Shown one piece after another: positions 26,149 to 26,295 of a DNA stretch of 60,000 nucleotides. The translations under genes were made by a program, and so were the position numbers. The notes under the pieces were generated by a model that made no database searches, was not told where the DNA came from, and saw only the letters and a list, made by a program, of their open reading frames with translations. Origin of the DNA: Malacoraja senta (Eukaryota); assembly GCA_038087875.1 (NCBI GenBank), contig CM075989.1, positions 10,976,001 through 11,036,000 on the forward strand, written 5' to 3'. Every line of letters begins with the position of its first letter. Within the stretch, counting starts at the first letter, position 1.

Positions 26149-26295
26149 ATGCTGGAGTAACTAAAGGTCTGAAGAAGGGTCTCGACCCGAAACGTCACCC
26201 ATTCCTTCTCTCAAGAGATGCCGCCTGTCTCGCTGCGTTACTCCAGCTTTGTGTCTACCTTCAATTTAAACCAGCATTTGCAGTTCTTTCCTACA
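26149..26295 (+). mobile_element. Penelope-derived short element carrying the best hammerhead motif
   Basis: 14-bp TSD CAAGTAATTACAAA (26135-26148, 26296-26309); matches the Penelope tail. Confidence 0.85.
26166..26199 (+). ncRNA. Minimal type I hammerhead ribozyme motif (putative)
   Basis: GGT-CTGAAGA-A-GGGT(CTCG)ACCC-GAAAC-GTC^ACC: CUGANGA and GAAA boxes, stem II, palindromic ACGU stem III, stem I GGU/ACC. Confidence 0.65.

What the first reader, a model, noticed from the sequence alone, without database searches (positions are those of the whole stretch)
26166..26199. Hammerhead ribozyme motif in a high-copy short-element family
Seen: GGU-CUGAAGA-A-GGGU(CUCG)ACCC-GAAAC-GUC^ACC. It has both catalytic boxes, a 4-bp stem II, a GUC cleavage triplet and a 3-bp stem I. 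The core is also intact at about 45977 (+) and 6838-6869 (-), and degenerate in many other copies. Established: Penelope-like elements carry minimal type I hammerheads whose palindromic stem III (here ACGU) is proposed to work as a dimer. An extra A after A9 is known from the CChMVd(+) viroid hammerhead. Inference: this genome is densely seeded with potentially self-cleaving motifs on both strands, including within UACA and MORF4L1 introns.
Basis: partly seen in the sequence, partly recalled or inferred. Interest (0 to 1): 0.75.

Follow-up and report, generated by a model that had tools for sequence, protein, structure and literature searches.

The report
Penelope retrotransposon's cap-end hammerhead ribozyme
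The motif is a real minimal hammerhead-ribozyme sequence inside the end repeat of a Penelope-type jumping gene, a known kind, and this copy faces away from its host gene and is likely inert, but its junctions and its relatives suggest that the ribozyme likely sits at the very start of the jumping gene's RNA, where a cut would remove the cap.

Summary
The motif is there as described and fits the published minimal hammerhead (min-HHR) of Penelope-like elements (PLEs). It is the end repeat (pLTR) of a Neptune-type PLE; a broken RT plus GIY-YIG copy runs into the same repeat at 13175. Three corrections follow. The third helix-I pair comes from a junction G; the family has 2 bp. Both host genes are on the minus strand, so 26166 is antisense and 45977 is not intronic. 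Only 4 of 24 core-spanning copies are intact, because G12 lies in a CpG. So 'densely seeded with self-cleaving motifs' is overstated. The newer point is position. Short copies begin 2-3 nt before CUGA at an initiator-like TCAGTCT, 6 of 7 with an extra G (cap-copy signature), and span the cut site. In related PLE loci a TATA box lies 36-47 nt before CUGA (11 of 17, about 1 expected; held-out set 4 of 11). The ribozyme therefore likely lies at the cap end, and the copies likely come from uncut RNA. No start site or cleavage was shown. The scan noted PLE hammerheads before in other shark windows.

The parts
26135..26148 (+). left target-site duplication (14 bp)
   Evidence: identical to 26296-26309
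26149..26162 (-). short inverted piece of the element's own 3' half (family columns about 71-84)
   Evidence: profile hit 26163-26131 on minus; anatomy
26163..26166 (+). 4-nt junction linker AAAG; its last G makes the third helix-I pair and is likely the untemplated cap-copy G
   Evidence: the family has A at this column
26167..26295 (+). short pLTR copy of the Penelope-like element, from the inferred start site to the end of the 'tail'
   Evidence: profile columns 3-136, 138 bits
26169..26196 (+). minimal type I hammerhead core: CUGAAGA, extra A, 4-bp stem II with CUCG loop, GAAA, palindrome ACGU, C17; predicted cut after 26196
   Evidence: consensus of PMC4209133 Fig. S3
26296..26309 (+). 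right target-site duplication
10851..13016 (+). broken (stops, frameshifts) ORF of the parent Penelope-like element: RT, Cys-type linker, GIY-YIG endonuclease
   Evidence: tblastn E 2e-87 to 8e-107 with homologs; closest homologs from cartilaginous fishes, 68% identity; GIY-YIG Pfam E 0.018, below cut-off
13146..13151 (+). TATA-like word TATATC, 29 nt before the modal 5' boundary
   Evidence: the same word 30 nt before in the loose-end consensus of 2 of 4 runs
13175..13308 (+). 3' pLTR copy joined to the ORF; hammerhead dead (G12 to A at CpG)
45619..46108 (+). second long copy (endonuclease end, 3' UTR, intact core at 45978); between the two genes
   Evidence: 86% identical to 12844-12981 (family D17)
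6768..6869 (-). short copy with intact core, 2-bp helix I and 15-bp duplication; the only copy that is intact, keeps helix I and is sense to a presumed host intron
59312..59772 (.). nest of four copies as two head-to-head pairs in the last MORF4L1 intron; 59455(-) keeps the core but its first helix-I pair is lost to the fold-back
29414..29465 (-). first coding exon of the UACA-like host gene (sets the transcribed strand)
   Evidence: name recalled, no database hit; no further exon found in 1-29400
56357..59858 (-). last two coding exons and last intron of MORF4L1

Best explanation
The motif is the minimal hammerhead sequence in the end repeat (pLTR) of a Neptune-type Penelope-like retrotransposon, and this copy is a likely inert 129-bp insertion, antisense to its host intron, that was likely reverse-transcribed from the capped, uncut 5' end of the element's RNA. 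Steps. (1) Shown: the repeat is the 3' end of an RT plus GIY-YIG element. (2) Inferred: a TATA/initiator promoter in the pLTR starts RNA at AGUCUGAAG, so the ribozyme core begins at about nucleotide +4. (3) Inferred from the anole element: the element's protein nicks AT-rich DNA and starts reverse transcription inside the RNA at one of two sites about 100 and 135 nt from the start (the PLE 'tail'). (4) Inferred: the enzyme runs to the cap and often adds a G, or folds back at the CAG-T-CTG palindrome to give head-to-head pairs. (5) Shown: copies span the cut site, so their template was not cut there. (6) Shown: after insertion CpG decay destroys G12 and ACGU in most copies. Selection on the core is inferred to act only in master elements, where the ribozyme would cut with help from the protein or a second copy and drop a capped leader of about 31 nt.
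For: Parent element: (38 of 38 long homologs with a YIG motif carry the CX2-5CxxC linker; PMC8557442 gives a zinc-finger-like linker for Neptune and Nematis and names CX2-5CxxC for Neptune). Insertion hallmarks: 14-bp duplication and inverted piece; two 3' end zones in the window, columns about 97-109 and 126-135, and in reads, 13262-13273 and 13308, matching the tail between two RT start sites in PMC11167929. 5' ends: 25 of 41 hits reach the first 5 profile columns, and 1 of 41 starts near the cut site. In two DNA runs the top loose ends include 13175 and 13176 (912 and 947; 1260 and 1250 contigs) with unrelated flanks whose last consensus letter is G in all four rows; none of the listed rows is at the cut site 13205/13206. 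G precedes the start in 6 of 7 non-fold-back copies (p 0.003). Untemplated G is attributed to cap copying in PMC3287187. Promoter position: TATAWW 36-47 nt before C3 in 11 of 17 related loci (1.06 expected; at most 7 in 5,000 shuffles; 6 of 11 sequence clusters) and in 4 of 11 held-out cores (background 4.2%). Inertness: minus-strand host genes; 4 of 24 intact; fold probability 0.0004-0.007 in context; no covariation among window copies (111 of 500 shuffles reach the score).
Against: No start site was mapped. One search found no place where many RNA molecules begin or end, neither at the cut site nor at the proposed start, so it cannot separate the readings. Its loose-end table shows only the top six rows per run (5,113 hidden), and the oligo-dT run's 13175 row ends in A, not G. 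For the three copies that start at GTCTG, this one included, an A-to-G change at column 1 explains the G equally well; without them the count is 3 of 4. The window family's TATA-like word (TATATC) is non-canonical and at the right distance in 1 of the 5 long copies examined. The TATA test window was fixed after the upstream sequences had been seen, and 6 of 17 and 7 of 11 loci lack the box. PMC3846280 explains head-to-head palindromes by self-priming on an antisense template. A plus-strand transcript through 26166 was not excluded.
Confidence: 0.7

Rival explanations
1. One reading: dispersed copies, this one included, are working self-cleavers that cut host transcripts, as monomers or dimers.
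For: The core is intact at 26169, and the junction G gives this copy a 3-bp helix I; as a bare 34-mer the hammerhead fold is the predicted minimum (probability 0.25). Family copies are abundant in RNA of a related organism (57,924 of 12,895,792 records, 95% running on into other sequence), so partners exist. Head-to-tail joints occur in DNA (60 and 53 contigs at 13262 to 13174-13176). One copy (13801) starts about at the cut site.
Against: Antisense to the host gene; 4 of 24 intact; the ACGU/ACGU duplex is only -1.7 kcal/mol and the fold falls below 1% in context. PLE min-HHR monomers show no cleavage and dimers little. The anole ribozyme needs its protein, and no reads ended at its cut site. 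One of nine Xenopus dimers cut.
Confidence: 0.08
2. The 5' boundary is not a start site but a structural stop or fold-back point (CAG-T-CTG palindrome, endonuclease resolution, or antisense self-priming); the ribozyme's job is to cut tandem read-through RNA into units, as proposed in 2014.
For: Many copies are head-to-head at this palindrome. The upstream tract also looks like a 3' splice site, and the D. virilis intron ends at helix I. PMC4209133 and PMC3846280 give these models.
Against: It does not predict the extra G or the TATA spacing. Unit-length cutting predicts copies starting at ACC, seen in at most 1 of 41. A spliced template predicts a constant upstream exon, but loose ends at 13175/13176 agree only 0.31-0.33 in the DNA runs and X24. 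YAG is not enriched before C3 in relatives (4 of 17, 6.2 expected).
Confidence: 0.2
3. The short unit is a SINE or retrozyme in its own right that copies from short copies, rather than a by-product of full-length masters.
For: Short-unit depth is far above ORF depth in both DNA runs (summed depth is no copy number); several subfamilies are visible; tandem joints exist; a 2026 preprint derives animal retrozymes from pLTRs.
Against: Short copies lack the upstream TATA-like region. Window copies are single or inverted, not tandem arrays. Their ends match the PLE tail.
Confidence: 0.15
4. Chance resemblance to a hammerhead.
For: No Rfam hit; folding z-score 0.74; no covariation within the window.
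Against: The same descriptor finds 18 motifs in 17 of 80 related PLE loci against 0.4 by shuffle, 17 of the 18 on the ORF strand, with different but paired stems. The position after the ORF is the same.
Confidence: 0.01

Closest known systems
Minimal type I hammerheads (min-HHR) in pLTRs of metazoan Penelope-like elements (Cervera and De la Pena 2014, PMC4209133)
   Same: CUGANGAH, G10.1-C11.1, GAAA, palindromic 15.2-16.2 with no loop 3, NUH; located in the pLTR after an RT-EN ORF; thousands of lone truncated copies; close opposite-strand pairs.
   Different: No cartilaginous fish among the 56 motifs of Fig. S3. Helix I is 2 bp here, against 2-6 (median 4) in 17 relatives. The parts of that paper I read do not place the ribozyme relative to the promoter, and a search counted 0 uses of 'TATA' in it.
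Anole Poseidon element PAc (Frangieh et al. 2024, PMC11167929)
   Same: Internal RT initiation at two sites giving a 'tail'; AT-rich targets; uncut RNA is the template; no reads at the cut site.
   Different: Poseidon clade, with the ORF start inside stem II; here a Neptune-type linker, and the ORF start was not located. Protein-assisted cleavage was shown there and is untested here.
Adineta and Drosophila virilis Penelope pLTR promoters (PMC3846280, PMC2377424)
   Same: Promoter inside the pLTR; putative TATA plus initiator in Adineta; inverted pLTRs, palindromic junctions, 8-10 bp duplications.
   Different: Both papers predate the hammerhead report. D. virilis is compared with TATA-less internal promoters and has a 75-bp intron between start and ribozyme.
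Non-LTR retrozymes (PMC7229834; bioRxiv 10.64898/2026.07.22.740005)
   Same: Type I hammerhead; pLTR-related; reported in one chondrichthyan.
   Different: Defined as tandem arrays with a hammerhead in each unit; the window copies are single or inverted insertions with duplications.

Membership tests
PLE minimal hammerhead (min-HHR) | Core boxes CUGANGA and GAAA, NUH triplet | tested here: met
PLE minimal hammerhead (min-HHR) | [quoted passage not shown] | tested here: met
   A26176; G26177-C26188; stem II paired in 91% of cells; definition
PLE minimal hammerhead (min-HHR) | Palindromic 15.2-16.2, little or no loop 3 | tested here: met
   ACGU at 26192-26195
PLE minimal hammerhead (min-HHR) | Short helix I (mostly 3-5 bp; 2 bp in D. 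virilis and a few others) | tested here: met
   3 bp in this copy through a junction G, 2 bp in the family; at the published minimum
PLE minimal hammerhead (min-HHR) | Located in the pLTR of an RT plus GIY-YIG element | tested here: met
   the same repeat 160 nt after the ORF stop, at 13175
PLE minimal hammerhead (min-HHR) | Self-cleavage as dimer or with protein | not testable with these tools
   no assay; the RNA lay showed no pile of ends and was insensitive
PLE minimal hammerhead (min-HHR) | Covariation of stems | tested here: inconclusive
   none among 25 window copies; different paired stems among related families, by inspection
EN+ Penelope-like element, Neptune type | RT with DKG motif followed by C-terminal GIY-YIG | tested here: met
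EN+ Penelope-like element, Neptune type | CX2-5CxxC linker between RT and EN | tested here: met
   38 of 38 long homologs with YIG (of 47 long ones); the window copy reads SNCRRCNTC, first Cys changed
EN+ Penelope-like element, Neptune type | RT phylogeny separating Neptune from Nematis | not tested
   no named reference proteins on hand
EN+ Penelope-like element, Neptune type | 5' truncation, inverted 5' copies, 30-40 bp tail | tested here: met
   definition
Non-LTR retrozyme | Tandem array with a complete hammerhead in at least two consecutive units | tested here: not met
   window copies are single or head-to-head; tandem joints exist elsewhere in the genomes read
Non-LTR retrozyme | Circular RNA product | not testable with these tools
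   no circRNA data
Rfam hammerhead families, including exapted intronic hammerheads of amniotes | Covariance-model match at gathering score; sense orientation in a host intron | tested here: not met
   antisense

The most novel reading that the evidence does not exclude
PLE hammerheads are cap-proximal switches. A conserved TATA-initiator-hammerhead cassette places the ribozyme in the first 30-50 nt of the element's Pol II transcript, so that protein-triggered cleavage removes the cap and shuts off or destroys the RNA (negative feedback), while only uncut, capped RNA is copied into DNA. The many short copies in this genome are then a fossil map of the start site. This would give a role to a ribozyme whose function in EN+ PLEs is called unclear (PMC8557442).
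Probability: 0.3. Interest if true: 0.7.

Novelty: new member of a known kind. Interest (0 to 1): 0.42.

Why it matters
As posed, it extends a 2014 class to another vertebrate lineage and says little about UACA or MORF4L1. What adds value is a handle on an open question. PMC8557442 states that hammerhead function in EN+ PLEs is unclear, and PMC11167929 found it dispensable for insertion in vitro. If the ribozyme sits right behind the cap, cutting tandem RNA into units is not its only possible job: every cut of a promoter-started RNA would decap it. This can be tested with existing CAGE data, PLE consensus libraries and the published anole in vitro system. A family this abundant also allows a well-powered test for loss of intact sense-strand cores from introns.

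Tried and rejected
Whole-genome search: no genome is held for this window, so there is no genome-wide census. Rfam: nothing relevant. Exact DNA pattern in metagenome and viral contigs: 0 and 0. Related loci in viral contigs: none. Pfam on single stop-free PLE pieces: 0 hits; only a CR1-type RT at 19538-20383 scored. Sequencing-run search for 25600-26800: no RNA holder listed, which is no evidence either way. Piles of RNA ends: none; the test is insensitive, being oligo-dT and single-cell libraries of a related organism dominated by read-through copies. Strand skew in the single-cell run X23 (about 3.5- to 8.5-fold over the short unit) was not used, because library direction is unknown and internal priming could cause it. 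A type III reading with a cut just before AGUCUG was considered by eye and dropped, since neither helix III nor a helix I hairpin can form. A spliced-template origin was rejected as the main source (see rival 2). Covariation in the window: not above shuffles. Initiator-like words within 18 nt before C3 in relatives are only modestly enriched (TCAKTY 3 of 17, 0.65 expected; YYANWYY 8 of 17, 3.3 expected). By eye, 9 of the 56 motifs in PMC4209133 Fig. S3 have TCAKTY in the 5' flank shown; this was not tested by script. Literature not obtained: Lunse et al. (PLE hammerhead dimers) and Arkhipova et al. 2017; either may already note the promoter spacing. Supplements of PMC11167929 gave no text hits; its figures and GenBank file could not be read. 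bioRxiv supplements are closed.

Full report
OBSERVATION. The 34 bases at 26166-26199 read as described. C3 is 26169, the extra A is 26176, stem II is 26177-26180/26185-26188, GAAA is 26189-26192, and the predicted cut follows C26196. The two boxes at this spacing occur 8 times in the window against 0.05 by shuffle. All belong to one repeat family: a profile built from six copies finds 41 hits in 30 loci covering 4,019 bases. Rfam finds nothing at gathering score and no hammerhead at E<=10 around the site, and the bare 34-mer folds no better than shuffles (z 0.74). No whole genome is held.

WHAT THE FAMILY IS. Two copies extend upstream and are 86% alike there. The one at 13175 follows a broken ORF. 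Its 197-aa piece finds 1,113 proteins at E<=1e-10 among 1,840 candidates; the best come from cartilaginous fishes (68% identity) and carry RT domains. tblastn with five homologs tiles 10851-13005 through RT and endonuclease. The frames show KPADKGG, GVAMGTRMGPSY, YIDD, a Cys linker and LYIGET; Pfam GIY-YIG scores E 0.018, below its cut-off. Of 47 long homologs, 38 have a YIG motif and all 38 have CX2-5CxxC before it, the linker that PMC8557442 gives for Neptune (a zinc-finger-like linker also marks Nematis). I built no tree. The motif fits the min-HHR consensus of PMC4209133 Fig. S3, where C-G-U-C helix III and the extra base after A9 are the rule. In 80 related loci from metagenome contigs my descriptor finds 18 motifs in 17 loci (0.4 per shuffled pass), 17 of them on the ORF strand, with helix I of 2-6 bp. 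The host is inferred to be a cartilaginous fish.

THIS COPY. It is bounded by a 14-bp duplication (26135-26148, 26296-26309) and holds an inverted 14-nt piece of the element, a 4-nt linker AAAG, and the 129-bp body. The first G of 'GGU' is the last linker base. The family has A there, and the outer helix-I pair is unpaired in 19 of 24 copies. MORF4L1 is on the minus strand (59772-59858, E 2e-13 to PDB MORF4L1; last exon ends 56357). A first coding exon reading MKSLKSRLKK lies on the minus strand at about 29414-29465. I call it UACA-like from memory; no library confirmed the name, and no further exon was found to its left. So 26166(+) is antisense to the presumed intron, 45978(+) is between the genes, and only 6869(-) and 59455(-) are intact cores on a transcribed strand; the second has lost its first helix-I pair.

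DECAY. Four of 24 core-spanning copies keep both boxes, stem II and helix III. G12 sits in a CpG and is kept in 21 of 36 copies; C28 and G29 of the palindrome in 26 and 23 of 36. Non-CpG core columns are better kept (0.93) than downstream ones (0.88; naive p 0.001), which fits selection in master elements across subfamilies but is open to trimming bias near the profile end. Covariation is not above shuffles. The hammerhead-compatible fold has probability 0.25 for the bare 34-mer, 0.0004-0.007 for this copy in context and 1e-4 to 2e-7 for 45975 and 6869; the ACGU duplex is -1.7 kcal/mol. Published tests: no monomer activity and low dimer activity for a Schistosoma min-HHR; protein-dependent cleavage in the anole element, not needed for insertion; 1 of 9 Xenopus dimers active.

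ENDS OF THE SHORT COPIES. I noted the start-site idea before laying reads. In the window 25 of 41 hits reach the first five profile columns (the profile cannot reach further, so I checked flanks); 1 of 41 (13801) starts near the cut site. Of 7 copies that start at AGTCTG or GTCTG without fold-back or upstream homology, 6 have G just before (p 0.003). For the three GTCTG cases an A-to-G change is an equal explanation; the remaining count is 3 of 4. Laying four runs on 12300-13500 at 82% likeness placed 270,658 and 328,778 contigs from two DNA runs. Listed loose ends include 13174 (long copies), 13175 and 13176 (unrelated flanks, agreement 0.31-0.32, last consensus letter G in 4 of 4 DNA rows; A in the oligo-dT run's 13175 row), 13218 (a diverged subfamily) and 3' ends at 13257-13273 and 13308. 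None listed is at 13205/13206, but only six rows per run are shown and 5,113 are hidden. Opposite-strand and head-to-tail joints also fall at 13174-13176. No pile of RNA starts or ends was seen anywhere. Untemplated G at full-length 5' junctions is attributed to cap copying in PMC3287187. Two 3' ends some 35 nt apart match the tail explained by internal RT starts in PMC11167929. TCAGTCT fits the initiator consensus YYANWYY (recalled). TATATC lies 29 nt before the A at 13175, at the right distance in 1 of 5 long copies, and 30 nt before it in the loose-end consensus of 2 of 4 runs.

PROMOTER SPACING IN RELATIVES. TATAWW starts 36-47 nt before C3 in 11 of 17 loci. 1.06 are expected from neighbouring windows, and 5,000 shuffles of the same upstream bases reach at most 7; 4 of 17 have the word on the opposite strand; the 11 fall in 6 of 11 sequence clusters. 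The test window (-53 to -25) was set after I had seen. In plus-strand cores that my descriptor had rejected but that have a 4-bp stem II, 4 of 11 have the box (at -26 to -39) against a 4.2% background; 0 of 2 minus-strand cores do. Adding 30 nt puts the start 6-17 nt before C3 and the cut 35-50 nt after the start. For D. virilis, an intron 46 bp after the start (PMC2377424) that ends at helix I implies a similar distance in spliced RNA; that is my inference.

MECHANISM. Shown: PLE origin, insertion anatomy, orientation, decay, copies spanning the cut site, TATA spacing in relatives. Inferred: start site at AGUCUG, cap-derived G, internal RT start, and activity confined to masters. Speculative: that cleavage serves as a protein-triggered decapping switch (probability 0.3). 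Cutting tandem read-through RNA, the 2014 proposal, is not excluded and could coexist.

LITERATURE SEEN. PMC4209133: parts 1-2 of 4 and supplement parts 1-2 of 3. PMC11167929: parts 1-2 of 4; supplement search empty. bioRxiv 10.64898/2026.07.22.740005: parts 1 and 3 of 5 and passages. Passages only: PMC8557442, PMC6765202, PMC2377424, PMC3287187, PMC3846280, PMC7229834, PMC6431247. Not held: Lunse et al. and Arkhipova et al. 2017. Searches for the promoter and cap link: (7 papers listed of 8; none with both HHR and TATA), (untemplated G with Penelope: nothing relevant; decapping or autoregulation: nothing relevant among 15 of 30 listed). Searches for cartilaginous fish; only the retrozyme preprint, with one species. 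The library lacks most subscription papers, so absence there is weak. PMC3846280 already notes a putative TATA and initiator in a rotifer pLTR. Earlier scan notes describe PLE hammerheads and fold-back insertions in three other shark windows; none was found by sequence or for the start-site idea.

VERDICT. A real motif and a new member of a known kind; this copy is most likely a passive relic. Interest 0.42, carried by the testable cap-end placement rather than by the locus.

Noticed in passing
window 26575-26733: Neighbouring insertion with the same build (12-bp duplication, inverted 3' piece, short copy), but helix III reads ACAU and helix I is lost.
   Followed up: partly
window 13801-13895 (+): The only copy that starts about at the predicted cut site (columns 33-35); it could come from a cleaved RNA or from chance truncation. 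No duplication found.
   Followed up: partly
window 37165-37373, 39190-39430, 43524-43647, 49394-49565, 59312-59772, 503-729, 5168-5330: Head-to-head pairs, several centred on the element's own CAG-T-CTG palindrome; in RNA they would form long hairpins that hide the core.
   Followed up: partly
window 13199-13257 (joint in run X24): 452 RNA reads of a related organism show a tandem unit of about 66 nt that keeps GAAAC-GUC-like sequence but lacks CUGAAGA: an expressed pLTR-derived minisatellite without a ribozyme core.
   Followed up: no
window 19009-20383 (-) and many short pieces (D11, D19, I1): CR1-type LINE fragments (RVT_1 E 8e-35; the CR1 label is recalled), a second abundant repeat family.
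   Followed up: no
window 24000-24700 and 2340-2900: GC-rich islands inside the presumed intron with no Pfam hit in the long frames; possibly other repeats or alternative promoters.
   Followed up: no
L037:2123, L041:3369, L052:2576, L060:5070, L062:3463, L071:3677: Hammerhead-like cores in distant PLE relatives followed by GAAA-CCGTG or CCATG, with no extra base after A9 and no clear helix I by my descriptor; possibly a distinct variant.
   Followed up: no
L032:1409-1445: Textbook TATA box and TCAGT initiator 31 nt apart, directly before the hammerhead core.
   Followed up: yes
window 31-33 of the family alignment (e.g. 5290-, 16792-, 59455-): GUC-ACC, GUU-GCC and GUC-GCC forms could all derive from one CpG at the cut site, so the older master may have had a U-G first pair in helix I.
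   Followed up: no
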